Assembly: GCA_046290225.1 (NCBI GenBank)
Contig: JBKAGE010000079.1
Coordinates: 128,001 to 192,000 of the forward strand
Direction: 5' to 3'
Length of the DNA: 64,000 nt
From: Bradymonadia bacterium
Lineage (GTDB): Bacteria; Myxococcota_A; Bradymonadia; UBA7976; UBA1532
Position numbers and translations under genes: made by a program. The notes below the pieces were generated by a model that saw only the letters and a list, made by a program, of their open reading frames with translations, searched no databases and had not been told where the DNA came from. Shown here piece by piece: positions 42,854 through 61,786 of this stretch. The stretch's first letter is position 1; every line of letters starts with the position of its first letter.

Positions 42854-43026
42854 CGGCTGCTCCAGCGGCGAGAAAAAACGCAATCATCCTCTCCACCAGA
42901 GCCTTAGATCACAAGCTCTCGTTTGACTGAACGAATGTGCGGTGTTAGGTCATGATTGACATCGAGGTGCGTGGACGGTTTGTTGAGAGCCCTCCATCAC
43001 ACACCCAATGGGAGAGTCACAGACCC

Positions 43027-44509: not shown

Positions 44510-47500
44510 GTGAATTTGATCCGACAGAGCCGGCTCATCTTTCGCCGCGGCGCCTCAGAGAAGATCTACGAGATCGAACTCTGTGAGACCTCGGCCGCTC
44601 CGCCGAACCGCTATGTGGTGAACTACCGCTATGGCCGGCGTGGGGGCACCTTCAAAGAAGGCTCCAAGACCGTCACGCCGGTGAGTCGCGTCGAAGCGGA
44701 TCAAATTTTCGATCACCTCGAAGAAGCGCAGCTGCTCAAGGGCTACCAGCGTGAAGGGGCTGCAGGCGCAGCCCCCCCGCCGGCAACCTCGACGCCCTCT
44801 TCCGGAAGTGGCCTGGGCTCCCGTCTCTCTGGCCGCACACCCACACCCTCGACGACCTCAGCGGGCACCAGCGCCTCGGGTGGCACCCGGCGACGCGTGA
44901 GTGCGCCCACCTCAGCGCCAGCGGCGACAGCCTCGAGATCCCCCAGCGGAGATGCACGACGCGATCGCGTACTGGCACGCCTCGATGAGGGCGACTCGGT
45001 GGCTGGTGCCGGTGGGCGCCGTGGTGGGCTCTCCGGGCTGCGGGCCACCTTCACCCGGCATCGGAGAGGGGCGCGTCGCACCGCCACCCCCGTGGCGTGG
45101 CCTCTCGAGCGCGCCATCTGGCGGGCAGGGGAGCTGCGCCTCGTCGACGCCGTGCCGCGCCTCATCGAGCTCATCGGCACCAAAGACGCTCAGCGGGACT
45201 ACTGCATCGCCTGGGCTCTGGGTCGCATCGACGAGCGCAGCGCCCTCGGCGCCCTCAACCGCCTCTATCGAGATGTCACTGGTCACGAGATGGTGGTGCG
45301 CATGGCCGGTGAGGCGGTGAGGGCCCTGCTCGACGAGACCGAACTGCAGACGTTCCGAGAAGAAGTGGCCCGCAAGCTGCCTGATCCGCTGCGCACACAG
45401 GTGCTCCAAGGCGGCGAGGGGGCTGATGATGCCCTCGCCGAGTCTTTGGGCAACCACTTGGAGAGCAGCGGTCACAAAGCGTGGAAGGCTGTAGAGCGCC
45501 TCTACCTGATCGACAATGACACCACCCGAGCGGTGCTCAAGTCGCTCCTGCGTCAGATGCCTCTCAAAGCCCCCATGTGGCGGGCGGCGCGGCACATCTT
45601 CAAGGCCGCCGAGTTCCGCCTCGACGCCGAGATCTTCGGCCTGCTCGCCTGGCGTATGGCCACGACCCGGGCGTCTTTCAAGCGGGGCCGCTACAGCAGC
45701 TATGTGCGGGACGAAGAGACAGGGGGCTATGTCCGCCTCGACATGACCACCCTGGGCCGCCCCGACGCCAAATACGGCTACGGCAGCGACACCCGGGCCT
45801 ACATGCGTCGTCGTGTCTGGCGCACCCTGCGGCGACTCGGCGAGCTCGGAGACGAGGCCTTTGTGCCCATGGCCGTAGGTGTCTTGTTGCCGTTCTCCGA
45901 CAACGACAAGCGCACCGAGCGGACTGGGTGGAAGGGGCGTGGTCAGGCCCTCTATGGTGAGTTCGCCAGCTACTGGGCCTTCAACCATCTGCTCTACACC
46001 CACAGCGAGTCACATCACCCAGATCGCGCCAACCTGCGCTGGTGGGAGGTGATTCAGGCACCGAGTGGCCGTCGCAGCCGCTCTTCGGTGAGGTCCCGCC
46101 GTGGCAGCCTCAGCGATCGCACAGTGTCTCCGCCCCCTCAACAGGGGCGCACTGAGGCTTTCCCGGAGCTGTGGAACGACAACCCAGGAGGGTTGCTGCA
46201 TTTGCTCGACGAGAGTCGGTGCAGGCGGGTCCATCAGTTTGCCGTCGCCGCCCTGCGCGACAACACCCAGGCCCTCGAGCGCATGCCCATCGAGGCGGTG
46301 TGCATGCTCATCACCGCGCGCTACAAGGTCACCGTGGAGCTCGGCGTCGAGCTCGCCCGGGCCCGTGACGATGGCAGCGCCCCCGATCAGCGTCTGGTCA
46401 TCGCCTGTGCCCGCAGCTCGGTTCAGGCGGCGCGACAGCTGGCCTTCGACTGGATCAATCGTCACCCCGAGCACTTCACCCGTGATGGCAAGTTCCTCGC
46501 CGAGCTCATCACCAGCCAATGGGACGACACCCGCGTCTTCGCCCGAGGCTTGATTCGGGGGCTCACCCTCACCGAAGAGGCGGGCCGCACCCTCGTGGCT
46601 CGCCTAGTGGCCTCGCTCATGGCCCTCGGCAAGGGCAAGCAGAGCCACGAAGAGCAGATCGCCTCTGACGTCGCCGATTTGTTGTTCCGGGTGTTCCGAC
46701 AGCACCTCACAGGTCTCGGAGAGCAGGTCATCGCCGATCTGCTCCGACACCCGCTGCAGTCGGTGCAGGCCCTCGGCGGCGACATCCTGCTCAACCACGA
46801 CACCCTCGCGGCGAGCCCACCAGAGTCCTTGTTGCTGGCGTTGTTGCAGTCGAAACATGCCGAGGTGCGTGCTCTGGGTCTGCGCCTGATGGGTCAGCTG
46901 AGCGACGCCGCCCTCGGCGAGCGCAGCATGATCCTTGTGGCCCTCGCCACTCACAGCGAGGCCGATTTGAGAGCTGGTGCCATCGAGCATCTGAAACGGC
47001 TCGCCCAAATCGGCGATCTCGGCCAGAAGATGGCCGAATCTCTGATTCGCGCCCTCGTGGGGCAGAAGATCAGGGGCGACGGGGCAGATTACGCCGTCGA
47101 GGCGCTCCGTGAGGCCCTCAAAGGGCACTTGCCGGCGCTGCCGATGGATTCGATCTGGCGGCTGCTCAAGTCGAAAACCAAGGCTGGCCAGAGCCTCGGC
47201 GGGCTGCTGCTTGAGGCGGGCGTGAAGGCCGAGACTCTCACTGTCGACGAGATGGCCCGCCTCAGCCGCCACGAGATTCTCACGGTACGAGAGGCTGCGT
47301 GGGCCTTCTATCGCCAGAGCGTGGCGCGCATCAAAGCCGACATGGTGAGCGCAGTGCGCGTCTTCGACAGCGAGTGGGCCGACTCTCGCACCTTCGCCTT
47401 CGAGTTCTTCAGCGATGGCGACGTCTTCACCCGAGAGGCCTTCACACCGCAGATCCTGGTGGGCATCTGCGACAGCGTGCGCCCCGACGTACAGCTCTTC

Positions 47501-47950
47501 GGGCGGCGGCTCATCACTCAGTACTTCAACACCGAAGATGGCGTGGAGTACATGCTCAAGCTCGCCGAGCACCCGTCCATCGACATCCAGCTGTTCGTCA
47601 GCCAGTACCTCGAAGACTACGCTGCCGGTCACGCTGACCGCGTCGAAGCGCTCGAGCCCTACTTCGCCGGTGTGCTCGCTCGGGTGAACCGCGGAGGCGT
47701 GGCCAAGGCTCGTGTGTTCGGTTTCTTCGAGGCCCAGGCCAGCGTCAGCGCCGAGCTCGCGGCCCCCATCGCCCGGCTGCTCGCTCGACAGTCCGCCACA
47801 ATCGCCATCACTGATCGCGCCCGGTGCATCGAGATCATGACCTCGATTCAGCGCCGCTGGCCCGACATCGAGTTGCCCCTCGTGGCTCGCCCGCCAGAAG
47901 CGCGCGGTGCCATCTCCGGGCAGCCCGCGAACGCCAGCGCAGGAGCTTAA
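44510..47950 (+). CDS. WGR-like domain plus ARM/HEAT-repeat protein (retron-associated)
   Basis: SEKIYEI...YGRRG...LKGY N-terminal domain, Ser/Thr/Gly linker, long helical-repeat region (AWALGRI, WRAGEL). Confidence 0.8.
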   Translation: MNLIRQSRLIFRRGASEKIYEIELCETSAAPPNRYVVNYRYGRRGGTFKEGSKTVTPVSRVEADQIFDHLEEAQLLKGYQREGAAGAAPPPATSTPSSGSGLGSRLSGRTPTPSTTSAGTSASGGTRRRVSAPTSAPAATASRSPSGDARRDRVLARLDEGDSVAGAGGRRGGLSGLRATFTRHRRGARRTATPVAWPLERAIWRAGELRLVDAVPRLIELIGTKDAQRDYCIAWALGRIDERSALGALNRLYRDVTGHEMVVRMAGEAVRALLDETELQTFREEVARKLPDPLRTQVLQGGEGADDALAESLGNHLESSGHKAWKAVERLYLIDNDTTRAVLKSLLRQMPLKAPMWRAARHIFKAAEFRLDAEIFGLLAWRMATTRASFKRGRYSSYVRDEETGGYVRLDMTTLGRPDAKYGYGSDTRAYMRRRVWRTLRRLGELGDEAFVPMAVGVLLPFSDNDKRTERTGWKGRGQALYGEFASYWAFNHLLYTHSESHHPDRANLRWWEVIQAPSGRRSRSSVRSRRGSLSDRTVSPPPQQGRTEAFPELWNDNPGGLLHLLDESRCRRVHQFAVAALRDNTQALERMPIEAVCMLITARYKVTVELGVELARARDDGSAPDQRLVIACARSSVQAARQLAFDWINRHPEHFTRDGKFLAELITSQWDDTRVFARGLIRGLTLTEEAGRTLVARLVASLMALGKGKQSHEEQIASDVADLLFRVFRQHLTGLGEQVIADLLRHPLQSVQALGGDILLNHDTLAASPPESLLLALLQSKHAEVRALGLRLMGQLSDAALGERSMILVALATHSEADLRAGAIEHLKRLAQIGDLGQKMAESLIRALVGQKIRGDGADYAVEALREALKGHLPALPMDSIWRLLKSKTKAGQSLGGLLLEAGVKAETLTVDEMARLSRHEILTVREAAWAFYRQSVARIKADMVSAVRVFDSEWADSRTFAFEFFSDGDVFTREAFTPQILVGICDSVRPDVQLFGRRLITQYFNTEDGVEYMLKLAEHPSIDIQLFVSQYLEDYAAGHADRVEALEPYFAGVLARVNRGGVAKARVFGFFEAQASVSAELAAPIARLLARQSATIAITDRARCIEIMTSIQRRWPDIELPLVARPPEARGAISGQPANASAGA

Positions 47951-47952
47951 CG

Positions 47953-49638
47953 GTGGAGTTCACGTTCAACTATCGAGGGGCCAGCGCCGTCAACAACCGC
48001 GCCGACCGAACCGAGATGGTCTTCTCACCCGACACGCTGCGCGATCCGACCTTCTTTCGGGGAGAGCTCACCGCCAGCAGCCGTGGCGGGGGCATCCCGT
48101 TTCGAGAGGCCATCAGCGCTCTGCACGATGTCGTGGTGCAAGATGGCCGGTTCGTGCCCAAGGACAAGAGCGCCTACAAAGCCTGGGTCGCTCAGCAAGA
48201 GCAGCTCGACGTGCTCGATCTCGCCGCAGAGCGGGCCGACATCGCCGACGAGATCAAAGAGCTGCGTGACGAGCTGAGGGTGCTCGATCAGAGATCGACC
48301 CGGCGTACGTCTGAGTTCTACGCCGCTCGGCGTCGCTATTGGGATTGGCTCTACCGGCACGACTACAACGCCTGGCTCATCTTCGACCCGGTGATCACCG
48401 TGCACCCCGACGAGCTGTTCTTCGAGTGCTTCAGCGTCGACGAGTCGAGTTATGGGCGCCTCGGGGTGAACCACGACGTGTTCCAGAACCTCGGCGATAT
48501 GGCGTGCGGTACAACGAACGTCGACTACTCGCAGCAGCTGTATGACGAGTTCCAAAAGATCCGCAGCTACAAGACCACCACGTTCCAGGTCGATCCCAGC
48601 GGCTTCGAGACTCAGACTCACGACGCCACCACCTTCAGCGAGGCTCACAAAGAGGTCAAAATCGACCTGCCCGACACGTGGGTTCGGGGTTTCTTGCAGG
48701 TGAACTCGGCCATGTCGTTGCCGGCCACCACCTTCACGCTGCATCCCATGGACGTGCACAACTTCTGCTTCGTGCTGCGGCGCCACAAAGAGATCGTGGG
48801 TCCGCGGTCGATGCGTTACGTGCTCACCCCCGGACAGCCGGTAAAGGTGGTCTTCGAGCCCTGGGACTTCGAGGTGGTGTGTCCACGCTCGATCTACGAG
48901 GGCCCCGTGGCCCAGGAGATCCGGGTCTGGGGCCGCCGCCGGCTGAACGTGCTCGAGCGGCTGATCCCTGTGGCCCGTAAGTTCACCGTGCATCTGCTCG
49001 GCAGCGGCATGCCTTCGTTCTACGTGGCCGATCTCGGCGATATGTCGTTCACCCTGGGCCTCTCCGGCTGGACGACGAACGACTGGGCCGCCGCGGGGAA
49101 CTTCGATCTCATGGCCCCTCGGGCAGATGTCGACGCCGACACCAAGCGGCGTGTCTTTCAGGCCCTCAAGGCCGACTGGCTCAAGACCCCCGATGTGCTG
49201 GCACACGATCTCAACCTCGACCGTGCCACGGTGCTCGGGGCTCTGGGCGCCTGGACCCAGGCGGGACGAGCCATCTACGACCTGAACAAGGGTGTGTATC
49301 GGGCCCGAGAGCTCAGCCGGGAGCCGCTCCCGCTCGACGCGCTGCGGTTCTCCAGCCCCCGAGAAGAGTCGGCCCACACCTTCGTGAGTCAGGGCAAGGT
49401 GCGCCTCAACAACACCAGTCACGACAATCGTGGCTGGTTGCATCTGAGGGGCACTGTGAAAGACACCGCTGCTCGAGGAAGCAGCAAGCAATACATGCCG
49501 TCGATCATCATCGACACCGACGAGCGGATGAATCACGGCGAGTGCACGTGCAACTGGTACACCCAGAACAAGCTCTACAAGGGCCCGTGCGAGCACATGA
49601 TCGCTTTGCGGTTGGAGTACAACCGCAGGCGGCATTGA
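47953..49638 (+). CDS. SWIM zinc-finger protein (retron-associated)
   Basis: GTG start after AGGAG (47941-47945); C-terminal ECTCNW...GPCEH (CxC...CxH). Confidence 0.85.
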   Translation: MEFTFNYRGASAVNNRADRTEMVFSPDTLRDPTFFRGELTASSRGGGIPFREAISALHDVVVQDGRFVPKDKSAYKAWVAQQEQLDVLDLAAERADIADEIKELRDELRVLDQRSTRRTSEFYAARRRYWDWLYRHDYNAWLIFDPVITVHPDELFFECFSVDESSYGRLGVNHDVFQNLGDMACGTTNVDYSQQLYDEFQKIRSYKTTTFQVDPSGFETQTHDATTFSEAHKEVKIDLPDTWVRGFLQVNSAMSLPATTFTLHPMDVHNFCFVLRRHKEIVGPRSMRYVLTPGQPVKVVFEPWDFEVVCPRSIYEGPVAQEIRVWGRRRLNVLERLIPVARKFTVHLLGSGMPSFYVADLGDMSFTLGLSGWTTNDWAAAGNFDLMAPRADVDADTKRRVFQALKADWLKTPDVLAHDLNLDRATVLGALGAWTQAGRAIYDLNKGVYRARELSREPLPLDALRFSSPREESAHTFVSQGKVRLNNTSHDNRGWLHLRGTVKDTAARGSSKQYMPSIIIDTDERMNHGECTCNWYTQNKLYKGPCEHMIALRLEYNRRRH

Positions 49639-49679: not shown

Positions 49680-49708
49680 TTGACAAGCTGGTTTTGATTC
49701 AATACGGT
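49680..49708 (+). promoter_or_regulatory. Sigma70-like promoter for the retron ncRNA/RT1
   Basis: TTGACA (49680-49685), a 17-bp spacer, then TACGGT (49703-49708), about 20 bp upstream of the 5' inverted-repeat arm. Confidence 0.7.
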
Positions 49709-49727
49709 CTGAACCAACGCTCTTTGA

Positions 49728-50056
49728 CAACACAACACACAACACAGGGCATCAACCTGATGCTCAGTCTAATGAATCAAATTGATTAGACTGTGCTCTC
49801 GCTGGCGTCGTGAACAGAGACCTTGCAACCCGGGCGGCGGATCGCCGTCCTTGCCACTTGCTTTGTCATGCGTCACTGGCCCGCTCTTTACTGTGGCGCC
49901 CGTCGCACTGGGGGCGACATTCCGGTATGGCTCCCGTGGAGCCAATGTCGCCCCCAGTGCGGGGCGCCTGGAGTTGAGTCGATCCAGTCCCGAGAGGAGT
50001 ACGAAGGTGATCGATGTCAGCGTTCGGGCTGATGCCTTGTGTTGTGTGTTGTGTTG
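49728..50056 (+). ncRNA. Retron msr-msd non-coding RNA
   Basis: Terminal inverted repeats 49728-49764 and 50019-50056 (outer 19 bp perfect). Short hairpins at 49765-49793 and 49832-49850; long hairpin 49895-49968 with an 18-bp perfect stem. Lies directly upstream of a retron RT. Confidence 0.85.
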
Positions 50057-50174
50057 AAGCGCGTGGCTCGCGCCCATTCGGGATGCATCGAGTCGCCCAC
50101 CGAATTGCTCAACTGCACGTTCATCGAGAATCCTCCTCCACCGCACTGCGGGGGAAGGTTGCGGCAGGCAGATC

Positions 50175-51797
50175 ATGAGCGAGCATCCGCGGACACGACA
50201 AGAGATATACGACCGTATTCGAGAGACCTCCTCCGAGCAGGTCCAGCTCGAAGATATGGTCCGTCTGGGCTTCTGGCCGCGCCGTCGCGGTCGTCCGGAA
50301 GACCCCGTCGATGAAGTCCGCCGTCGTGGTGAGCTGCTTCGGAGACTCAAAGCGTTACAGTCCGATCATCGCCGCCTGGGTGATCAGCAGGCTGCGTTGC
50401 GAGAGGTGCGCAGGCGTCGGATGAAGGCCGCCAAGGAGCGGCGCGTCGAGACCAAAGCTCGACGCATTCGTGAGCGCGAAGAGAAAGCCCGAGCATGGTC
50501 TCGCCGCAAACAGAGTGAGATTCTGTTTCTCGGTGAAGAGGTCTCTGGCGGGCTGGGCAAGTTCAGCTGTGACATCCCCAAGTTGCAGAAGCAGGGGCTG
50601 CCCATCTTCGAGAGCATGGAGGAGCTCGCTGGGGCCATGGGCATCACCGTGCCCGAGCTCCGGTTCCTCGCCTTCGATCGTAAGGTGAGCAGCCAGAGCC
50701 ACTATGTGCAGTTCACGGTGCCCAAGAAGACCGGTGGTGAGCGCCTGATCTCGGCACCGATGCCCCGACTCAAGCGTGCCCAGCGCTGGGTGCTCGACAC
50801 GCTGCTCACCCCCATCGACGTACACGACGCCGCTCACGGCTTCCGCGAGGGGCGGTCCATCGTCACCAACGCCACCCCCCACGTTGGTGCTGACGTTGTG
50901 GTGAACGTCGATCTCAGCGACTTCTTCCCCACAGTTGGCTATCGACGGGTGAGGGGGGTCTTCAAGGGCCTGGGCTACAGTGAGGCCATCTCTACTGTGC
51001 TCGCCCTCGTCTGCACCGAACCTCAGACCACCACTGTAGAGCTCGACGGCCGTACTTGGTACGTGAAGACCGGTACACGTTTGCTCCCACAGGGGGCCCC
51101 CACCAGCCCTGCCATCACCAACCTCATCTGTCGCAAGCTCGACCGACGCTTGCACGGCCTCGCCCGTCGCTATGGCTTCACCTACACCCGCTACGCCGAC
51201 GATCTGACCTTCTCCGCCCCGAAAGAGGCTGGTGGTGATGTGGGCATCGTGCTGCGGTGTCTGCGACAGGTGGTGGCCGCCGAGGGCTTCGTGGTGCACC
51301 CCGAGAAGACCCGCATCTTGCGCAACGGCGCTCGAAAAGAGGTCACCGGGGTGGTGGTGAACGAGAAGCTTTCTGTTGATCGCAAGACACTGCGCAAGTT
51401 CCGAGCGGTGCTGTTCCAGATCTACAAGGACGGCCCTGAAGGGAAGTCATGGGGTGCTGAGGGGGCGCCACTCTTTGCCAGCCTCCAGGGATACGCCGAC
51501 TTCGTCTACATGGTCGATCCTCAGCGTGGCGGGCCCTTGCGCGAGAAGGTCCTCGAGCTGCGCCACCGTCATGGCGTGAGCCCAGCGCCTCGACCTGCGG
51601 CTGCCCAGCCGGCGGCCACTCAAGCAGCTGCGCCTGCTGCGCCCACCGCACCTTCGGCGCCTCCCGCCGAGAGCGGCGATCTCAATGATCTCATCCGCCA
51701 GTTTTCTGGCGATGAAGAGAAGCCCGCCGAGCAGAGCTCCGAGTCTTCGAGCGAGAGTGAGGAAGACAAAGACAAGAAGTGGTGGAAGCTGTTTTGA
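50175..51797 (+). CDS. Retron-type reverse transcriptase RT1
   Basis: PKKTGGERLI, AAHGF, NATPH (region X NAxxH), DLSDFFP, LPQGAPTSP, YTRYADD, VTG (region Y). Long Arg-rich N-terminal extension. Confidence 0.95.
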   Translation: MSEHPRTRQEIYDRIRETSSEQVQLEDMVRLGFWPRRRGRPEDPVDEVRRRGELLRRLKALQSDHRRLGDQQAALREVRRRRMKAAKERRVETKARRIREREEKARAWSRRKQSEILFLGEEVSGGLGKFSCDIPKLQKQGLPIFESMEELAGAMGITVPELRFLAFDRKVSSQSHYVQFTVPKKTGGERLISAPMPRLKRAQRWVLDTLLTPIDVHDAAHGFREGRSIVTNATPHVGADVVVNVDLSDFFPTVGYRRVRGVFKGLGYSEAISTVLALVCTEPQTTTVELDGRTWYVKTGTRLLPQGAPTSPAITNLICRKLDRRLHGLARRYGFTYTRYADDLTFSAPKEAGGDVGIVLRCLRQVVAAEGFVVHPEKTRILRNGARKEVTGVVVNEKLSVDRKTLRKFRAVLFQIYKDGPEGKSWGAEGAPLFASLQGYADFVYMVDPQRGGPLREKVLELRHRHGVSPAPRPAAAQPAATQAAAPAAPTAPSAPPAESGDLNDLIRQFSGDEEKPAEQSSESSSESEEDKDKKWWKLF

Positions 51798-51828: not shown

Positions 51829-52072
51829 ACATCACCATCAAACGATGTCTCCATGAAAAGCGTAAGACCAGCCTTATTGAAGAGTTGTCTTCTGGATGTT
51901 GTGGTGGGGCCCTGGTAGGCAGTCATCGCTTCGCTCTGACTGCCTACAAGAGGCTCAGCTATAGCTCTCGTCCTTGAATGGTTCGACGCGAATCAGCATT
52001 TGATATTGATGTTTGGTGAGATGAGTCCTCAGGTCCGTGAGGCGGCCGAAACCTGCCTCACGGGTCACTGAG
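51829..52072 (-). ncRNA. Candidate second structured RNA (possible msr-msd) downstream of RT2
   Basis: Imperfect 16-bp inverted repeat 51829-51844/51997-52012 that pairs better on the minus strand (two G-U pairs, one mismatch). It encloses an 11-bp perfect hairpin (51915-51947). A UUCG-capped hairpin lies at about 52028-52072. Confidence 0.45.
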
Positions 52073-52080
52073 CATGCTGA

Positions 52081-53439
52081 CTACTGACCGGCACGAGCCT
52101 GTTGAATGCGCCCCAAGTCCTCCAGCATCTGTCCACCCAGCTCCGGGTTGGTCATGTGCACGAAGGCCGCATACCCCGCCAGTTGTGCCAGAGTCTCGCC
52201 TTCCTTGAGGGGCTTGCCGTTGCTCAGGTTGTGGATCGCCGCCCGCAGCTGGCGCCGGAGCGCCCGAGGTACCCGCGGGGTGCCCTCACCGTTGACGATG
52301 AGCCCGGTCACCGCCTGGCGACCGCCAGAGCGGGCCACGCGGGTCTTCTCCTTGTGCACCTCGAAGCCCTCAGCGGCGCAGATGGTCTTCACCCCACCCA
52401 TGAGGGCCGCCACATTCGAAGTGGCTTTGTCGTCCTTCTTCTTGGCCTTCTTCTTCCCGGTGTCGGATGCAGCGGGCAGGCTGAAGGTCAGGTCGTCGGC
52501 GTAGCGGGTGTAGCGCCAGCCCAGCTTACGGGCCAGGCCGCTCAGGCGACGGTCGAGGCGCATGCACAAGGCGTTGGTGAGAGCCGGGCTCGTTGGGGCG
52601 CCCTGAGGCAAGCACCGAGGGCCCATGGCGACAAAATAGGTCTTGCCGTCGTGCTCCACCACCTCCCGAGGAGGCTCGGTGCACAGCAACGCCAGCAACG
52701 TGGCCACCTGCTCGCGGTAACCCGCCTTGCGGAACACACCCTTCACCCGGCGGTAGGTCACCGTGGGGAAGAAGTCCTTGAGGTCCATCTTGAGGACCAT
52801 GGAGGAATGGGTGTGCACCGCGGCGTTGGAGGCTATGCTACGCCCCGGCACGAAGCCGTGGGCAGCGCCATGCACCGGCAGGTGCTCCACGATCTCGCGC
52901 AGAATCCAGCGCTGGGCAGACTTGAGTCGGGGCATGGGTGCCCAGATGGCTCGCTCACCGCCCGAGCGCTTGGGGATGGTGAAGCGGGTGTAGTTCACCC
53001 GAGTCGCCGCCTCGCGGTGGTAGGTGAGACCTCGCAGCTCCGGGATGCTCACCTCAAGGGCCTCCGCGAGGGCCTTGGGGTTGTCGAGCTGAGGCAGCTC
53101 GTTCTCCTGGGCCCGGGCCTCGGGCTCGGGGAGATCGTGCTTGTCGAAGTCGTGATCGTCCTGCCAGAAGACGCCCTCACCGAGGTGCACAAGGTGGGTG
53201 GCCTTGTAGGCCGCCCAGGCCTCCTTCTTCAGTCGGCGCCGCTCCGCAGCCTCTTCTTTGAGCTGCTTCTTGTACTGACTCAGCTGAGACTTGCTCATGT
53301 TGTCGGTCTCCCGACGCTGCACGAGAAAGCCGCGCTCCTTGAGCTGCTGGTCGATGTAGGCCTGGATGCTGCCCGCCTGAGCGATGGCACGCCAGAGCAC
53401 GATGGGATCGCTGTTTCGAGTTTGAGTGGCCATCGTCAT
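52081..53439 (-). CDS. Retron-type reverse transcriptase RT2
   Basis: PKRSGGER, AAHGF, NAAVH, DLKDFFP, LPQGAPTSP, YTRYADD, VTG. ATG overlaps the upstream stop (TGATG). Confidence 0.95.
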   Translation of the reverse strand: MTMATQTRNSDPIVLWRAIAQAGSIQAYIDQQLKERGFLVQRRETDNMSKSQLSQYKKQLKEEAAERRRLKKEAWAAYKATHLVHLGEGVFWQDDHDFDKHDLPEPEARAQENELPQLDNPKALAEALEVSIPELRGLTYHREAATRVNYTRFTIPKRSGGERAIWAPMPRLKSAQRWILREIVEHLPVHGAAHGFVPGRSIASNAAVHTHSSMVLKMDLKDFFPTVTYRRVKGVFRKAGYREQVATLLALLCTEPPREVVEHDGKTYFVAMGPRCLPQGAPTSPALTNALCMRLDRRLSGLARKLGWRYTRYADDLTFSLPAASDTGKKKAKKKDDKATSNVAALMGGVKTICAAEGFEVHKEKTRVARSGGRQAVTGLIVNGEGTPRVPRALRRQLRAAIHNLSNGKPLKEGETLAQLAGYAAFVHMTNPELGGQMLEDLGRIQQARAGQ

Positions 53440-55349
53440 CAACCTGCCGTCGCGTCCAGGTAACCCTGGGATTCGAGTTCATCAACACGGGCGAAGTAGG
53501 CCGCCCGTGCGTCGGCCACTGTGTCAAAGACCAGGCTCTGCACCCGGAGCCGAGCGTCTGCACGCTGACCCCAGCGCACCTTGAGACGGGTGCGGTTGAG
53601 GGAGAGCTGGTAGAGCGCCTCGCCCCGGCTGTGACGCCGGGTGTAGGTGCGGGTCTCCACGGTGATGGTATTTCGGGCCTTGCCTCGACCCTCGGCGGCC
53701 TTCTTCCGCTCCTCGGCGTACTTGAGCGCCAGGGCGATGAGAGGGGCGCTGGGACCATGCTTGAGGGCGTGCTTGCGGAAGAACGGCGACGAGCAGCTGG
53801 CCCGGGTGACCCGGCCCTCGTCGTCGATGAGCAGCTCACAGCGGTACTCGCGCTGATCGGCCGCCACCACCACCTTGCCGGTGATCTCCACGCCGCGGCC
53901 GAAGATGCGGTTCTCCTGGGTGATCTTCACCGCGCCATCGGTGGCGAGCAGATCGCGCGCCTGGCGCTCCCGGGTGTTCCGGTGGGCCAGCGTGTCGAGC
54001 TTGAGCGGCTCAGCGGTGAGCGGTCGCAGCCGGTAGACGTCACGGGCGATGTCGTACATCAGCCGGCCCGCCTGACAACCACCCTGCAAGGCGGCGGTGA
54101 GGTCGGCCCCCTTGAGCCCAGTGGCCTTGCCGATGCCCTTGGCGCTGTCGGACCACTTCTCGCCCAGATGCTCGAGCACCTTGTCGAGGCCCTCGGGCTC
54201 ACCCTCAGGGCGGGGGAGCAGCACGTCGAAGTTGAGGCTCTGGGCCCAGTTCGCCGAGGAGAACCCGGTGAGGCCCAAGGTGAAGGTGACGGCGCCGCAC
54301 CGGAACACGAAGAACGAGGGCATGCCGCTGCCGAGCAGGTGCACATCCACGCTCTCGATGAAGGGCATGAGCCTCCGCAACAGCATGAGCCGACGACGCC
54401 CCCAGATGCGAATGACGTGGGCCGTGCGGCCCTCGTAGTTCGCCGAGGACGACGGGATAATCTCTTCCCAGGGCTCGAGCACCAGACGCGGGGGCTCGCC
54501 GGGGACCAGCTCGACGCGGATCGCCCGCCCCTTGCGCTTCTGGTCGGCCTTGAGCCGCAGGGTGCGCATCACGTTGTAGAGATCGATGGGGGCCAGGGAG
54601 AAGGTAGAGGCCGGCAGAGTGGCCGCCGACTGCACCTGCAAGAAGCCACGGAGCCACGCATCGGGCACGTTGATCTGCTTCTCGATGACCTTGGGTTGCC
54701 CCTCGGTCTCGAGGCCGACGTCGCCTGCACCCCCAGCCGCATCACCGAGGGTGAGGGTGGTGTTGCGGTAGCTGCGCATGCGCTGCACCCCATTGAAGAG
54801 GGCATCGCTGAAGTCGACGTTGGTGGTGCCGAAGGTGGGCGCGGGCTTGCCCTTGGCGCCGATCTTGAGGGCCTTGGCGTCCAGCGACAGCTGCGCGTAG
54901 GTGCCTTCGTCTTTGCTGAACACCTCGAAGGTGACGGCGTCGGGGTGCACCGAGACGATGGGGTCGAGGATCAACCACGCGTTGGGGTCGTTCCGACTCA
55001 GCCAGCTGAAGTAGGCCTGCTGGGCCTGCCAGACGCTCATGGTGGCGGTCTGCTTCTTCATGGCCTGATAGGCCAGCCACGCGGAGCGATCCTTGGGCTT
55101 GTAGCGGAAGTCGCTCTTCACCACCTCGTAGAGGGCCGACAAGGCCTCGCGCACGGCGACGGGCTCGCCGATCTCCGCCGTGGCGGAGACCGTGGGGCGA
55201 CCGGACTCGCCGAAGAGGGCGATGCGGGTGCCGCCGTCTTCCCCGATGACCTCGCTGGCCCCGGGATACTTCAGGCTGAAGGGGCTCTTGCTGGCCCCGC
55301 TGGGATCGTCAGCCTTCTCGCCTTCAGGGCGCTTCTCTTCGCCGCTCAT
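53439..55349 (-). CDS. SWIM-family paralog with degenerate zinc finger and C-terminal WGR-like domain
   Basis: Shares DPxxxVHPD, GTTNVDxS, PDxWxRGFLQV, WGRRRL and VHLLGSGMPSF with 47953-49638. The SWIM site reads SCSS...GPSAP; C-terminal VRWGQR...SQGY. ATGA overlap with AGGAGG RBS. Confidence 0.85.
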   Translation of the reverse strand: MSGEEKRPEGEKADDPSGASKSPFSLKYPGASEVIGEDGGTRIALFGESGRPTVSATAEIGEPVAVREALSALYEVVKSDFRYKPKDRSAWLAYQAMKKQTATMSVWQAQQAYFSWLSRNDPNAWLILDPIVSVHPDAVTFEVFSKDEGTYAQLSLDAKALKIGAKGKPAPTFGTTNVDFSDALFNGVQRMRSYRNTTLTLGDAAGGAGDVGLETEGQPKVIEKQINVPDAWLRGFLQVQSAATLPASTFSLAPIDLYNVMRTLRLKADQKRKGRAIRVELVPGEPPRLVLEPWEEIIPSSSANYEGRTAHVIRIWGRRRLMLLRRLMPFIESVDVHLLGSGMPSFFVFRCGAVTFTLGLTGFSSANWAQSLNFDVLLPRPEGEPEGLDKVLEHLGEKWSDSAKGIGKATGLKGADLTAALQGGCQAGRLMYDIARDVYRLRPLTAEPLKLDTLAHRNTRERQARDLLATDGAVKITQENRIFGRGVEITGKVVVAADQREYRCELLIDDEGRVTRASCSSPFFRKHALKHGPSAPLIALALKYAEERKKAAEGRGKARNTITVETRTYTRRHSRGEALYQLSLNRTRLKVRWGQRADARLRVQSLVFDTVADARAAYFARVDELESQGYLDATAG

Positions 55350-58300
55350 GAGCGCACCTCCTTCTGGGCACGGGCGCGCCGGGCACGGCGCAGGGCCCGC
55401 CATGCGGCCTTCCTCATGTCTTCGTCTTCCTTCTCGTTGGTCGCCACGGCGAGGATCGGCTTCTCTGCGGCCTTGGCCTTGGCTTCGTCGGCGGCGATGC
55501 GGGCCAGGGCCTCCAGGGCCCCGAGCCGGGCGTCGGCCTTGAGTGTCTTGTCGTTGAGCGCGGCGGTGAGGCCGTCGATGTCACCACGGGCCACCAGGTG
55601 CGGCAGGACCACACCCTGGCGGTGAATCTGCCCCGCTGCACCTCGCAGAATCGCCCCACTGGCTTTGTCGTCTGCTGCGCTGAGCAGGCGGTCGAGGGCC
55701 GGACGATCGTCGAGGGCCCCTTCGAGCAGCGTGGCTGCCCGCTTGGGGTCGAGGGCGGAGACCGCCGTCGAGGCGAGCGTACGCAGCTCGGCGTCGGGCC
55801 CAGTCGCTGCGGCGACGAGGGCGTCGAGGCCCTTGGCCTTGGCGAAGCCCGACGACAAAGCGGTGATGGCCATCTGCCGCAAGGGCCGCGCTTCACGGGG
55901 CACCATGGCAGAGACCTGAATCAGCACCTCGGCCCCTGCCTCGAGTCGGCCACAGGCCCACAGAAGCCAGGAGAGGCGATCGGTGAGCTGAGAGAGGGCC
56001 TGACGGTGTTGGTGCTGACCGCTCCGAGCGGCAGAGAGCCGCTGGTATCGATCCGACCAGAGCGTGAGGCTCTGAGTGGCCGCCTCGGTGACAGCCTTGC
56101 CGTGCTTCTTGCCCTCACCGACACGACCCAGGATGCGCGCCGCCACCTCGACGGTGCGATCGTGGCTGGCGCCGAGGGCTTCGACTGCCTCGGCCACCGG
56201 CGCAGGATCACGGGTGAGCAGGGCGTTCACCAGAGGTGGCACGTACTCTTCGGTGTAGTCCTCGTTGATCTTGGGCAACACCTTGAGCAGACGGCCGGCT
56301 TCACCCCGCTCGCACAGCCGCTTGAGCGTGTCCTCTTCGAGATCGTCGAAGGGGCTCTGGATGAAGATGTAGTCGGGCTCGAGGGACTCGGCGCCATACT
56401 GCGTACGGAGCGCGGTCGCGGCGGCCTGGGCTACGTCCCAGTCGTCATCTTCGATGAGCTGCTTGGCGAGGGCCTCTCGCGTAGCCACGTCGTCGTGGTG
56501 AGCGAGCAGCTCGCAGACCCGCTGTCGGATCGACCAGTCATCGTCGTTGATGCGCCCACGGACGAACTGCCACGCGGCGTCACCACCGAACCAGCGCAGA
56601 CCGCTGAGGGCGTACTCGGCCACGCCATCATCGGCGCCGGCGAGACCCTTGAGGATCTTGAAGATCTTCTCGCGGTGCTCACCCTCGGCCAGGTGGCCGA
56701 TGGCCTCCGCGGCCTGCTCTTGCAGAGCGTTATCCTCGTCGTTGACCAGACGCAGCAGCAAGTCGAGGGCTCGTGGATCACCGAGCTTGCCCAGGGCCTC
56801 GACGGCCCGCTGGCGGTAGCTGATGTTCTCGAGCAGATCGACGGAGGCGAGGAGCACGCTGATGCCATCGGCCCGCCCGCCGAGGGCCAGGCCCTCTGCG
56901 GCGACGAACTGAGTGACCTGATCTTTGTGCTTCAGAGCCTCGACGAGAGCCTCGGCCTTGCCCTCACGGTGGCGCAGGCGCCACGAGAGTGCGTCGAGGG
57001 CCGACAGGCGCACGTTGTCCTTGGGGAAGGCGGCGAGCTGAGCCAGGGTGCCGTCGACGACAGCCTCGGGGCACCACTTGGCGCCGGCCATGAGCTTCTG
57101 CAGCCAGCCGGTGTCGTTGGCGCCCCAGGCGGCCTCAAGGAGGGCACCGAAGAGGTCGTGTTGGCGGGCGTGTTGCCCTTTCTGCCACCCGTCGTCTTCC
57201 TGACCCGTGCGATCGATCTCGTCGAAGTCGACGTTGAGATACTGGTTGTAGCCCGTGACAGTGAGGGCGGCGTTGAAGGCGTATCCGGCACGTTGCTTCT
57301 GGCCGAGATCAGCCAGGAGGCGCGGGAACACTTCGCGGCGCCGGAACTCACCTACATGCTGGTAGATGTTGCGCATATCGGCGTTGCCCGCGGGATCGTT
57401 GTCGACCCGGTTGAGCATGGCGTCGGCGGTGCGCTCGTCGGCGAGGCGTGCCAGGGCGTTCAAGATACGGCCCTGGGTGTTGGAGGCCGTGGCCAGCAAC
57501 TTCACCAGCGGGTCGAAGCCCTTGGCCTCCTGAATGCTGCCCAGCTGGATCGCCACCTCGAGGCGTACATCGAGGAAAGGGGAGTCCACGGCGTCGAGCA
57601 AGGCCTTGAGGGCGGCCTTTTGTACCTTGGCCTCAGCGTCGGGCTTGACCTTGAGCATGGCCAGCTTGCCCGGCGCCTGGTTGCGCAGGCGACTCGAGCG
57701 GGCCTGCAGCCCCTCGGCCCAGGGCATCACGGGCTCTCCCTGGCCTTCGAGGAGCTTCACCGCCTCGAACTCCAGGCCGTCTTCCTTGGTGCGCAGCACG
57801 TCGAGCAGCACTCGCCGGCCTTCCTTGGCACCGCTCTTCTTGGCGAGCAGCTCAAGGGCCATGACCCCCACATCGCCCTGACCGGTGGCCAGCGCCTCGG
57901 CGGAGAGCTGCGAGACATCGTAGCCGACAGCGTTGAGGGCCTCGAAGGCAGCCCGGCGCACGATGGCCGAGTTGTCTGTGAGGCGCTGCACGAAGACCGG
58001 GATGGCGGCTTCGGCGGTGCCGTGACCCTCAGCGACCATGGTCTGCAAGCGGACCAGGGCTTGACGGCGCACCCATGCAGGGGCCTCGCCGGCACGACAC
58101 AGCCCGGTGTAGGCGCCGAAGACCAGCTGCTGCAGGGTGGCGTTGTCGTAGGCGGTCTTGGCGGCCTTGCGCTTCTTCGCCGCCTTGGCGAGGGCGTCGA
58201 GATCTACGGCGTACCGGGTGGAGAACACCCGCCACAGGCGGTTGAAGGCCCCCTGTTTCTTCTCGCCGAGGCCCTTGAGCACCTCTGCGGCGCGGGCCTT

Positions 58301-61300
58301 GAGGCGGGGGGCCCCGAAGGTCACCGCCTCGGCGAGCTGGGTGATGGTCTCCTCGGTGATCGTCCAGGCCTTCTGGCCGTCTCCGCGATCGTTGAACACG
58401 TCGACGACGTGACGGCCGAAGGCGTCGAGATCACCGAAATGCTCCAGGGCCTTGGCACCTGCGATGCGCACCCGGGCGTCTGCTGAGGAGAGCGCCGCGA
58501 GGCAGCGATCGGGGATGCCGTCGTTCTCGCGCCACTCCATGAGCAGCATGAGGTTGAGGGCCTGCTGGCGGATGTCGCTGTCGTTGTGGTCGAGGAACGA
58601 CAGGAAGACATCCTCAACGTCGAGGGTGAGGGCGGCCCACAGCGCCACCTGAGCTGGGGCCCCGGCGTGGGTGGGGGCTGCGCGCCGAGTGGCGCGGCGG
58701 CGACCGCCCCGAGAGGGGGTGTCCTCAGCCTGACGATGCGCGAAGAGGATGGAAGCTCCTGTGGCATCGGCCAGTCGGGCGAGCCCCTTGGCGGCGATCA
58801 TGCGTACGGCCTCGTCGCCGTGTCGCAGGGCGGCCTTGAGGGCTGTGGGATCCTCGGCGTTGTCGGACCACGCCAGGGCCTCGGCGGCGCCCTTGCGGAT
58901 GCTGGCCTCGTCGTTGGCCAGCAACTTCACCAGGCTCTCGACGGCGTCGACGTGGCCCAAGGCCCCGAGGCCCTCGAGGGCCACCAGGGTGTCGGCCTGC
59001 CAGAGCGTCGCGAGATCGGAGACCTCGGGGCGTTCTGAGTTGACCTGCTCCAGCAGAGGCTTGAGGGCCTTCTCGTCGCCCACCACCGCACGGGCCGCGG
59101 CGGCCTTGTTGCGCACGTCGCGGTGCTCGCTGGACATCGCCTTCACCAGGGCGTCGTCGTTGTCGGCGAGCTTGAGGGCGTTGATGGCCACCGAGCGCAC
59201 ATCAGCGTCATCGTCGTCGAGGGCCTTCACCAGCAGCGGAGCAGTCTCTTTGGAGTACTTCCGCGCCAGGGCCTTCACCGAAGTGAGGCGCACGTCGGCG
59301 AAGGGGCTCTCCAGGCCACGGCTCAGCGGGGCGAGGCCCTTGGACTTGCCTTTCTTGACGGCGAAGGCGAAGGCGTCGGTGCGCAGGTCTTGATCGGGAT
59401 CGTCGAAAAGACCCAGCAACATGTCCCAGGCCCATGGGTGAGCGATCTCGCCCATGACCTCGGTGAGCACCTCGCGACGGATGTTGGGGTGCAGGCTCTT
59501 CAGGGCGAAGGCCAGAGTGGCGTCACCACCCCCCATGACCTGCAGGTTGATGGTGGCCTTGAAGGCCTCGCTGCGGATCGCGCTCCCGGCGTCGTTCAGG
59601 GCCCGCTCCAGCAGGCCGTAAGCGGCGTCGTTCGGGTCGGCGGGCAGCTTCTTCTTGAGCTGCCGGACCAGCACGCTCAGGCCCCGGCGGCGCACGTCTT
59701 CGTGCTCCGCCATGAGGCCCGCCTCAGCGGACTCGAGGGGGGTGTCGGAGAGCAGCCGCGACAGGGCGGTGAAGGCAGCGTCGCGGACCTGACCCGTTGT
59801 GTCCCGGAGCATCAGGCGCAGGCGCTGCAGGCCCCGAGGATCACCGAGGGCCTCCAAGGCCCGGCAGGCCTCTACCCGTGCGGTGCTGTCGTCGGCTCGG
59901 GTGAGCTGCAGCAGCGTGCCGAAGGCGCGGGGATCTTGCAGCTGCGCCAGGGCTACGGCGCCACGGACACAGGTGTCGAGGGCCTGACCCGCCATGGCTT
60001 CAAGCAGAGGTGCGAAGTCATCGGCGGTGAGATCGGCCGTCTTGACCTTCTTGGTCTTCGGCAGCGCGGCCTCGGGATCGATCTCCTCGCCATGGGTCTC
60101 GATCTGGTAGAGGCGCCGGTGCACGTCTTTGTCGAGGTGGCGCACCGCCTGGGCGAGGGTGAGCTGGCTGAGCAGCCGCACGTCGAAGGCCATCAGTCGA
60201 ACCGAGGCCTCGCGATCTTCCAGGGTACGGCGCAGAGCGGAGCGCACCACGGCCTCGGCGAGCAGCTCGCGCTGGTGAAGCCGCAGCAGCGCCTGCCAGC
60301 GCAGATCGGCCTGGCCGCTCTTGAGCCCGATGAGGGTGCCCACCGGGTCGTCGCCGTAGAAGCCCTCCAGGGTCTCCAGGGCTGCGAAGCGCACCTCGCG
60401 AGGGTTGTCGTCAAGGGCCCGGGTCAGGCGACTCAGGGCCTGCTCGTCCTCACCGGCGAGGGTGCCGAGGGCCTGCACAGCCTCAACGCCGATGTCGGCC
60501 TTCCGCGCGCCGAGGGCGAGCTCGAGGGGGCGCAGGTTGCTTTGGCCTTCGAGGGTACGCAGCCCGGTGAGGGCCGCTCGCCGCACCTTCTCGCTGCCGC
60601 CTCGGAGCAGGCCTTCGAGGGGCTGCACCGCCCGGCGGTTGTCGCTGTTGCCCAGCAGCTCGACGGCGAGCACGCGCAGGGCGTGATCGTCATCGTCGCT
60701 GGCCCGGCTGGCGATCATCTCGATGGCCTTGGCGTCGTTGTAGCCTGCCAGGGCCTGCAGGGCCTCCTGACGGGTGGAGACCTCCTTGGCCTTGAAGCTG
60801 CGACGGGCCCAGGCGTATGCGTCGCGGATGGTGAGCGAGCGGTGCTCGATCTTGCCCGCGGCGTCCTGGATGAAGAGCCGGATGGTGTTGTCGTTGCTGG
60901 CGATGGCCACGTGACCACGGCTCTTGTAGGTCACCTGCGCCATGGCCACGACGGGCTTGAGCGTGTCCTTGAGCGTGGACGGGCGCTTGTTGCCTCCGCC
61001 CACCGTCCAGATCTTCACCTCGCCGTCACGGCCGCCGGTGTAGAACTTGTCGGCGTCGTCCTCGATGGCGGGGCCTTCGGCGATGATTGCGCCGCTGCTG
61101 TGACCGCCGCGACCGCCGCGCTCCTCGGGCTCCAGGGTGCCCCGTACGTGAGTCACGAGCAGGCGGCCGTCGGCGCCGGCGCTCATCACCCGGAGCTCCT
61201 CGGGCTCGAAGCACAGCGAGGTGACCTCGCCGTTGTGGGCCTTGGCGTTGTTGCCCGCGAGGAACTGGGGCTTCTCTTCACAGTCGAAGACCACCAGGGT

Positions 61301-61783: not shown

Positions 61784-61786
61784 CGA

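What the first reader, a model, noticed from the sequence alone, without database searches (positions are those of the whole stretch)
49680..50174. Unannotated msr-msd RNA with its own promoter inside the operon
Seen: TTGACA-17-TACGGT, then arm CAACACAACACACAACACAGGGCATCA (49728-49754) pairing with TGATGCCTTGTGTTGTGTGTTGTGTTG (50030-50056). Inside lie two short hairpins (msr-like) and a long stem CGCACTGGGGGCGACATT/AATGTCGCCCCCAGTGCG with a 7-nt bulge and a GGCTCC/GGAGCC cap (msd-like). G-U pairs favour the plus strand. Known: the a1/a2-msr-msd-RT order is the retron hallmark. Inference: ncRNA plus RT1 can be transcribed independently of the upstream WGR/ARM/SWIM genes, and the msDNA would include the reverse complement of about 49895-49968.
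Basis: partly seen in the sequence, partly recalled or inferred. Interest (0 to 1): 0.8.

Follow-up and report, generated by a model that had tools for sequence, protein, structure and literature searches.

The report
Type XIII retron beside split retron
The flagged stretch is a real, conserved template RNA of an already classified bacterial retron (type XIII), likely with its own promoter, while the facing second retron has no template RNA beside it and likely uses two RNA copies encoded elsewhere in the genome.

Summary
Observation confirmed. The RNA (49728-50056) folds far better than shuffles (z -11.5). Its core (49820-50008) is conserved and covaries across 18 loci, each beside an RT of one type XIII clade that includes the Nannocystis exedens cassette (likely Ne144). 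Corrections: only one of the two hairpins is msr. The branch G is predicted at 49825 and the msDNA at about 145 nt (about 49859-50003). The long 27-bp arm and the first hairpin are a private extension. The promoter fits this genome's promoter grammar (39 sites against 2.9 expected), but only 3 of 22 homologues show the pattern. So the flagged RNA is a new member of a known kind. The less ordinary part is next door. The convergent type XIII operon (RT2) has no adjacent RNA, and two solo msr-msd copies lie on another contig. This RNA family tracks the RT2 clade (9 of 9 and 11 of 13 genomes) and is unlinked in at least 10 genomes, which fits the RT-less Ne160. The SWIM partner is predicted to have a PCNA-like fold. 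This scan noted both points before on other DNA; my searches found neither in print. No RNA data; function untested.

The parts
49680..49708 (+). Sigma-70-type promoter candidate (TTGACA-17-TACGGT); start predicted near 49715
   Evidence: Sequence. TTGACA-16/18-TAnnnT occurs 39 times in the genome against 2.9 expected, several upstream of tRNAs; TACGGT is the -10 at 2 other such sites. Seen in 3 of 22 homologues. No RNA data.
49728..49760 (+). Distal a1 extension (27+5 bp arm), private to this locus
   Evidence: The a1-a2 span is 329 nt here against 221-239 nt in RT1-type homologues.
49762..49796 (+). Hairpin inserted in the 5' arm, upstream of the branch G; not msr, not conserved
   Evidence: single copy in the genome.
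49800..49824 (+). Proximal a1, pairing with 50004-50022; its last 3 nt pair with 50004-50006
   Evidence: The three pairs next to the G hold in 54 of 54 cells over 18 sequences, with one compensatory T-A to A-T change.
49825..49825 (+). Predicted branching (priming) G
   Evidence: Invariant in 18 of 18. Context is TTGC here and TAGC in four Nannocystis loci; TAGC is the usual priming context (Simon 2019). Against: the thermodynamic fold pairs this G.
49832..49850 (+). Conserved msr hairpin (8 bp)
   Evidence: 100% of cells paired; 4 of 8 pairs have changes on both sides.
49859..50003 (-). Predicted msd: template copied from 50003 leftwards, msDNA about 144-145 nt with one long hairpin
   Evidence: Conserved anchor before a2. 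Lower stems, main stem and cap covary. DNA fold -47.5 kcal/mol. The 3' end is inferred from the N. exedens cassette on the assumption that it is Ne144.
50004..50056 (+). a2 (proximal 50004-50022, distal 50024-50056)
50175..51797 (+). RT1, type XIII retron RT (540 aa; NAxxH 232-236, YADD 340, VTG 390)
   Evidence: PADLOC RT_XIII 617 bits, next family 332; motifs; clade with the N. exedens cis RT, support 99; model closest to Ec86 and Ec67 RTs.
47953..49638 (+). SWIM1 partner: predicted PCNA-like clamp fold (about 34-374), winged helix (392-458), SWIM finger CxCx12CxH (531-548)
   Evidence: PADLOC SWIM_XIII 759 bits; AF2 pLDDT 74.6; Foldseek E 1.3e-9 to PCNA; VIA Z 20.5, rmsd 3.0, 235 aligned.
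44510..47950 (+). WGR/HEAT-ARM partner (Mestre cluster 216 type), 1146 aa
   Evidence: PADLOC WGR_XIII 1040 bits; found upstream of SWIM in RT1-type loci.
52081..53442 (-). RT2, a second type XIII RT with intact YADD and VTG and no adjacent RNA; likely served by solo RNAs at G000:C35:41461-41679 and C35:465069-465287
   Evidence: PADLOC RT_XIII 566 bits; motifs; separate clade, support 100; no RNA of its family in the window or at the operon head; co-occurrence.
53439..64000 (-). RT2 operon partners: SWIM2, a 2145-aa WD40-HEAT protein, and a BRCT-bearing helical protein that runs past the window end to about 65038

Best explanation
The flagged stretch is the conserved msr-msd RNA of a type XIII retron, sitting between its SWIM gene and RT1; it is likely transcribed from its own promoter near 49715, and RT1 is predicted to prime on the 2'-OH of G49825 and copy from 50003 back to about 49859, giving a branched msDNA of about 145 nt. 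The RT1-msDNA particle would bind the WGR/HEAT protein and the SWIM protein, whose front half is predicted to fold like a DNA sliding clamp. It would hold them in check until a phage or DNA-stress signal changes the msDNA, as in other retrons. The facing RT2 operon is a second, independent type XIII retron that does not share this RNA and likely uses two solo RNA genes on another contig in trans. Shown: sequence, conservation, covariation, gene context and co-occurrence. Inferred: transcription start, priming site, msDNA ends, RT2-solo RNA pairing, complex formation and defence role.
For: Core RNA: found upstream of all 17 RT1-type GTDB loci that had upstream sequence. 32 of 45 consensus pairs change on both sides and 91.3% of cells are paired; 0 of 500 shuffles reach this, and slid controls give 31-44%. 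The model also finds the RNA 0.3-0.4 kb upstream of an RT in 4 genomes it was not built from. PADLOC type XIII models are the best hits for the RT, SWIM and WGR proteins, matching the definition in Mestre 2020. The three pairs next to G49825 hold in 54 of 54 cells. Promoter pattern enriched 13-fold in this genome. RT2 family: in 151 phylum genomes, 9 of 9 with an RT2-clade RT carry the second RNA, 1 has the RNA with its contig ending just after SWIM, and 141 have neither. In 41 relatives it is 11 of 13 against 0 of 28. The second RNA is in cis to the same operon in G181, G121 and G022 and covaries (33 of 60 pairs). Clamp fold.
Against: No transcript or msDNA evidence could be obtained. In the thermodynamic fold G49825 is paired and the ACCTT/AAGGT helix has only 4% probability, so the priming site rests on conservation. 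Five of the 18 aligned RNAs are close Nannocystis kin, and the compensatory change next to the G is one event. The promoter pattern is missing in 17 of 22 homologues. Two genomes with an RT2-clade RT (G014, 89% complete; G025, 91%) show no second RNA even after a deeper search. Kin genomes are not independent, so the Fisher p-values overstate. My searches found no paper showing defence or an effector activity for any type XIII retron. A shared fold shows no function.
Confidence: 0.8

Rival explanations
1. The RNA is the RT1 template, but it is made mainly as part of the long WGR-SWIM-RNA-RT transcript and cut out; the promoter-like site is minor or incidental.
For: In 7 homologues the branch G lies 35-46 nt after the SWIM stop, leaving no intergenic room for a promoter. 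17 of 22 homologues show neither pattern scanned. No terminator-like site was called between the SWIM stop and the RNA on the plus strand.
Against: The exact pattern is 13-fold enriched in the genome and sits upstream of tRNAs and gene starts. This locus has the longest SWIM-to-G gap among single-copy loci (187 nt), and the predicted start falls 13 nt before a1. Both routes can coexist.
Confidence: 0.3
2. The flagged RNA serves both facing RTs; the solo copies on C35 are retrotransposed, non-functional relics, as was proposed for Ne160.
For: RT2 has no adjacent RNA and lies 2 kb away. The two RNA families are related (cross-scores of about 40 bits). [quoted passage not shown] Partial copies exist in N. 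exedens and N. punicea.
Against: Genomes with only an RT2-clade RT (G022, G026, G089, G181) carry the second RNA, and RT1-only genomes G183 and G184 and RT1-type G182 do not. The two G000 copies differ in the msd stem with pairing kept. The same RNA is in cis to the RT2 operon in three genomes. Region Y gives RTs specificity for their own msr (Simon 2019).
Confidence: 0.1
3. The retron is real but is not a phage-defence switch; it is a domesticated DNA-maintenance or stress module in which msDNA is a ligand or decoy for a clamp-like, WGR- and BRCT-bearing complex.
For: Type XIII tracks host 16S more than the other types tested (Mestre 2020). The partners carry clamp-like, WGR, BRCT, HEAT and winged-helix domains and no recognised toxin domain. 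The RNA gene can leave the operon and persist, unlike a tightly linked toxin-antitoxin cassette. Earlier scan notes report RT-less SWIM/HEAT pairs (not tested here).
Against: Type XIII is patchy (19 of 151 phylum genomes have such an RT) and occurs in distant phyla, as defence systems do. The acidic residues that Mestre flagged are invariant and could be catalytic.
Confidence: 0.35
4. The structure is a chance or repeat-derived inverted repeat with no link to RT1.
For: The genome holds many long inverted repeats from dispersed families, and Rfam has no matching family (best E 0.097, unrelated miRNA hairpins).
Against: Single-copy; conserved with covariation beside RT1 homologues from three phyla.
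Confidence: 0.01

Closest known systems
Retron type XIII (RT clade 10; Mestre et al. 2020, PMC7736814), Ne144 / Retron-Nex2 subgroup
   Same: WGR/HEAT-SWIM-RNA-RT order; PADLOC RT_XIII, SWIM_XIII and WGR_XIII are best hits. RT1 is 57-59% identical to, and in one clade with, the cis RT of N. exedens DSM 71. The RNA core aligns with that cassette, with G-to-template distance 178 against 177 nt. That this cassette is Ne144 is my inference: the genome has two such RTs and only this one has an adjacent RNA; it is 514 aa, and I recall 515 aa for Ne144.
   Different: a1/a2 is extended to 48 pairs with an inserted hairpin (span 329 against 221-239 nt). There is a clear promoter-like site in the SWIM-RNA gap. 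The priming context is TTGC rather than TAGC.
Retron-Nex1 (Ne160) of Nannocystis exedens (described in Simon et al. 2019, PMC6868368)
   Same: msr-msd copies with no RT within a kilobase. The solo RNA family of this genome matches two full and one partial copy in N. exedens DSM 71, 5.6 Mb from an RT2-clade operon. Its geometry allows about 160 nt of msDNA.
   Different: The review names no RT for Ne160 and treats the copies as possibly inserted by a distant RT; here a specific RT clade is proposed by co-occurrence. The original papers were not held, so sequence identity with Ne160 was not checked.
Retron-Mxa1 (Mx162) and Sau1 (Sa163)
   Same: Type XIII. From recall only, RT2 and the solo RNAs resemble the Mx162 kind.
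   Different: Mx162 is a contiguous msr-msd-RT cassette.
PCNA / 9-1-1 sliding clamps
   Same: Predicted two-domain clamp fold in SWIM1 residues about 34-374 (Z 20.5, rmsd 3.0, 235 aligned).
   Different: 7-15% identity, a long helical insert (about 64-141), and appended winged helix and SWIM finger. Ring formation is unknown.

Membership tests
Retron (general) | RT with YADD, region X (NAxxH) and region Y (VTG) | tested here: met
   YADD 340 and VTG 390; N232, A233, H236 invariant in 55 sequences; closest solved structures are retron RTs. The NAxxH consensus is recalled.
Retron (general) | ncRNA with a1/a2, msr hairpin(s) and a long msd stem, conserved by covariation | tested here: met
Retron (general) | Priming G at the inner end of a1 | tested here: inconclusive
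   G49825 is invariant and flanked by a conserved 3-bp helix, but it is paired in the thermodynamic fold.
Retron (general) | Production of 2'-5' branched msDNA | not testable with these tools
   Needs expression and sequencing.
Type XIII retron | RT of clade 10 | tested here: met
   PADLOC RT_XIII 617 bits against 332 for the next family; clade with Nannocystis RTs.
Type XIII retron | Linked cluster-114 protein with acidic motif, winged helix and C-terminal SWIM (CxCx12CxH) | tested here: met
   SWIM_XIII 759 bits; C531-x-C533-x12-C546-x-H548; winged helix 392-458; D145, D153, E158, D191 and E234 invariant. The last spacing is 42 rather than 37, so the strict pattern found no match.
Type XIII retron | Upstream WGR/HEAT-ARM protein (cluster 216), or two HEAT proteins | tested here: met
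   WGR_XIII 1040 bits for the RT1 operon; HEAT-ARM_XIII 1964 bits plus a second large gene for the RT2 operon.
Type XIII retron | Match to the published TypeXIIIB_Ne144 covariance model | not testable with these tools
   The model is not held; the Mestre supplement could not be read; Rfam has no such family.
Type XIII retron (RT2 operon) | ncRNA contiguous with the RT cassette | tested here: not met
   No RNA of the second family in the window or at the operon head; two copies on C35.
Anti-phage retron toxin-antitoxin system | Toxic effector neutralised by RT-msDNA, and phage protection | not testable with these tools
   No data; no such report for type XIII in searches.
DNA sliding clamp | Two-domain clamp fold | tested here: met
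   Predicted model only.
DNA sliding clamp | Closed ring that encircles DNA | tested here: inconclusive
   See Tried and rejected.

The most novel reading that the evidence does not exclude
This genome runs two type XIII retrons face to face. One is a conventional cassette (the flagged RNA plus RT1). The other is a split retron whose RT2 works in trans on a small set of free-standing RNA genes with different msd stems, giving one RT several msDNAs. The RT2 clade is the missing enzyme of Ne160, and in both retrons the msDNA controls a bacterial PCNA-like clamp protein with WGR, BRCT and HEAT partners.
Probability: 0.45. Interest if true: 0.72.

Novelty: new variant of a known kind. Interest (0 to 1): 0.5.

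Why it matters
The flagged RNA alone is one more type XIII retron, useful mainly because its predicted branch point and msDNA ends are now specific enough to test. The neighbour matters more. Retrons are defined as contiguous RNA-RT cassettes, and the pipelines I read look for the RNA only near the RT (vicinity in Mestre 2020; plus or minus 10 kb in the SPIRE survey), so unlinked RNAs would be missed. If RT2-clade enzymes use distant RNAs, the RT-less Ne160 has a candidate enzyme that can be tested in a cultured strain (N. exedens DSM 71). 'RNA-less' retron RTs would then deserve genome-wide searches, and nature would offer a one-RT, several-template design. The predicted clamp fold gives the oldest retron family, still without a function in the papers I searched, a concrete hypothesis other than the transposase-like nuclease reading.

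Tried and rejected
Expression: no RNA holder listed. Two DNA runs laid on the region gave only patchy low-depth contigs, so nothing is drawn from them.

Homo-trimer prediction for SWIM1 residues 36-368, three copies: no verdict, score 0.00, fold uncertain. It is not used for or against ring formation.

Rfam: only chance miRNA-hairpin matches. PDB sequence search with the SWIM alignment: nothing below E 0.7.

First DNA alignment held L008 in the wrong orientation and was redone. Left out of A2: L050 (near-duplicate of L038), L053 and L054 (duplicates of L046 and L047), L043 (no upstream sequence), and L052 (found later by the model).

Tree: it is the quick version. The L044 row is a wrong ORF picked by my script, L049 gave no ORF, and the partial G009 RT2 was assigned by identity (61% over residues 3-162), not by tree.

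Candidate branch Gs at 49817 and 49819 were rejected because homologues lack a G there. Pairing of 50141-50155 with the msd stem was rejected (probability 0). The strict DEDE pattern found no match. The automated a1/a2 pair counts include spurious distal pairs, so spans are quoted instead.

The closest RT1 relative (P0002, 77%) could not be traced to DNA: it was not among the 28 family genomes. Whether the extension and promoter are shared by a near relative is therefore open.

The search for 'Ne160' matched unrelated strings in the 20 papers listed. The Lampson and Rice papers were not held. The Mestre supplement was unreadable; it may list RNAs for RT2-clade members and bear on novelty.

Full report
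OBSERVATION. TTGACA is at 49680-49685, followed by 17 nt and TACGGT at 49703-49708. The arms 49728-49754 and 50030-50056 form 27 pairs, one of them G-U, plus 5 more. Hairpins lie at 49762-49796 and 49832-49850, and the long stem is 49904-49961 with bulge and cap. The region folds at z -11.45, with 0 of 100 shuffles as good, and the plus strand is favoured. Long inverted repeats alone prove little in this genome (173 hits, mostly repeat families), but this element is single-copy.

CONTEXT. PADLOC gives WGR_XIII (44510-47950), SWIM_XIII (47953-49638) and RT_XIII (50175-51797) on the plus strand. A convergent set lies on the minus strand: HEAT-ARM_XIII, SWIM_XIII and RT_XIII (52081-53442), with SWIM2 overlapping the RT2 start. 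These are the only two such RTs in the genome. Mestre 2020 (passages and section 16 read) defines type XIII by these partners and lists Ne144, Mx162, Mx65 and Sa163 as members.

THE RNA IS CONSERVED. All 17 RT1-type GTDB loci with upstream sequence carry the same core; one of them has two copies. In the 18-sequence alignment, 32 of 45 consensus pairs change on both sides and 91.3% of cells pair. No shuffle of 500 reaches this, and slid partners give 31-44%. Five rows are close Nannocystis kin. A model built from it finds the RNA just upstream of an RT in four further genomes of a 151-genome phylum sample and in L052. RT1 falls in a clade (support 99, quick tree) with the cis RT of N. exedens DSM 71, which I infer to be Ne144.

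ANATOMY, CORRECTED. The only invariant G at the inner end of a1 is G49825. Its context is TTGC here and TAGC in four Nannocystis loci; TAGC is the common priming context (Simon 2019, passages and section 5 read). The three bases before it pair with 50004-50006 in 54 of 54 cells, with one compensatory change. Against this, the free-energy fold pairs the G and gives that short helix 4% probability. Copying would start at 50003. The G-to-start distance is 178 nt against 177 in N. exedens, where a 144-nt product ends 9 nt after the msr hairpin, so about 145 nt ending near 49859 is predicted here. Only the 49832-49850 hairpin is msr. The 49762-49796 hairpin and the 27-bp arm are an extension not seen in homologues: span 329 against 221-239 nt.

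PROMOTER. TTGACA-16/18-TAnnnT occurs 39 times in the genome against 2.9 expected. The looser pattern precedes 12 of 96 tRNA calls against 0.28% of random 100-mers. TACGGT is the -10 at two other sites, which by eye lie before a tmRNA-like and a lexA-like sequence. The site is therefore probably real. It is not a family trait: 3 of 22 homologues show the pattern, 2 more an extended -10, and 17 neither; in 7 the G is 35-46 nt from the SWIM stop. No RNA run was listed.

THE NEIGHBOUR. The same model found two weaker matches on contig C35. Both are full msr-msd-like RNAs with no RT gene among the ORFs within 5 kb. They are near-identical in the conserved parts and differ in the msd stem with pairing kept. 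A blastn over 41 relatives, not chosen by RT content, found the family; it covaries (33 of 60 pairs, 96.7% paired).

CO-OCCURRENCE WITH RT2. In the phylum sample, 9 of 9 genomes with an RT2-clade RT carry the second RNA and 141 have neither. The remaining one, G121, has the RNA before the operon, and its contig ends just after SWIM. Seven of those 9 were in the training set; G089, G142 and G121 were not. In the relatives sample it is 11 of 13 against 0 of 28; G014 and G025 are misses even on a deeper search. Kin are not independent.

LINKAGE. The second RNA is in cis in three genomes: about 60 nt before the first gene in a gammaproteobacterium (G181), 1.6 kb before it in G121, and 0.9 kb after the RT in G022. 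It is unlinked in ten: G000, G013, G015, G021, G023 and G089 (other contigs, operon head assembled), G026 (100 kb), and N. exedens, N. punicea and N. pusilla (5.6, 3.4 and 8.9 Mb on one contig). G179 has them on different contigs. G004, G006, G009, G027, G134 and G142 are too fragmented to judge. N. exedens has two full copies and one partial copy, which fits the review's description of Ne160 as repeats without an RT within a kilobase. RT1-type genomes without RT2 (G182, G183, G184) lack the second RNA, so the flagged RNA belongs to RT1 and is unlikely to be shared.

PARTNERS. The AF2 model of SWIM1 (pLDDT 74.6) matches PCNA and 9-1-1 clamps over residues about 34-374 (Foldseek E 1.3e-9; Z 20.5, rmsd 3.0, 235 aligned), followed by a winged helix and the SWIM finger. 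Mestre read the acidic residues there as transposase-like; they are invariant in 64 sequences. Other partners carry WGR, HEAT, WD40 and BRCT domains. The ESM Atlas added only SWIM clusters.

MECHANISM. Shown: a conserved structured RNA tied to RT1, intact RT motifs, type XIII partners, and a second RNA family tied to RT2. Inferred: start near 49715 (about 0.7), priming at G49825 and an msDNA of about 145 nt (about 0.8), RT2 using the C35 RNAs in trans (about 0.85), and an RT-msDNA complex gating the clamp-like and HEAT proteins in phage defence (about 0.5; a housekeeping DNA-stress role is the main rival).

NOVELTY. The flagged RNA is a new member of a known kind. The split arrangement of the RT2 retron is a variant that I did not find in print; nor did I find the clamp fold. 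The original Ne144 and Ne160 papers and the Mestre supplement could not be read and may bear on this. Of Khan 2024, Millman 2020, the SPIRE survey and PMC8867640 I saw passages only; all other papers were seen as search listings only. This scan's earlier notes reached both ideas on other DNA. I had written both down first (notes), and they are not independent evidence. The overall class reflects the whole locus; interest 0.5.

Noticed in passing
G000:C35:41461-41679 (L151) and C35:465069-465287 (L143): Two solo msr-msd-like RNAs with different msd stems, relaxed promoter-like sequence upstream and hairpins downstream; likely templates of RT2.
   Followed up: yes
L037:7488-7920; G004:C234:9307-10168; G177-G180: Tandem RNA arrays: two RT1-type RNAs with different msd stems before one RT in L037, three second-family copies in G004, and two in each Nannocystis genome.
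   Followed up: partly
L009 (G021) and L010 (G013), upstream of their RT: A third type XIII RT lineage with its own cis RNA and a 35-bp a1/a2.
   Followed up: no
window 53439-55349 (-): SWIM2 lacks most zinc ligands of the SWIM motif and has no Pfam hit, though it scores 596 bits on SWIM_XIII.
   Followed up: no
window 42952-44460 (+): WGR plus beta-propeller gene just upstream of the RT1 operon; a relative lies at the same place in G023 and G015.
   Followed up: partly
window about 51915-51950: Hairpin of a dispersed GTAG-type repeat family between the two RT stop codons; its first 22 nt occur 32 times in the genome. The genome has several families of long inverted repeats.
   Followed up: no
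window 50141-50155: Matches the msd stem in 13 of 15 positions just upstream of the RT1 start; the predicted pairing probability is 0, so probably chance or a local hairpin.
   Followed up: partly
G000:C35:40085-41233: A TnpB-like gene (recognised by eye, not searched) ends about 230 nt upstream of one solo RNA copy.
   Followed up: no
G000, several contigs: 96 ARAGORN tRNA calls, many in dense tandem arrays with odd isotypes.
   Followed up: no
L072 (G021:C17): SWIM2 and the large HEAT gene of the RT2 operon align in pieces, suggesting frameshifts or assembly errors.
   Followed up: no
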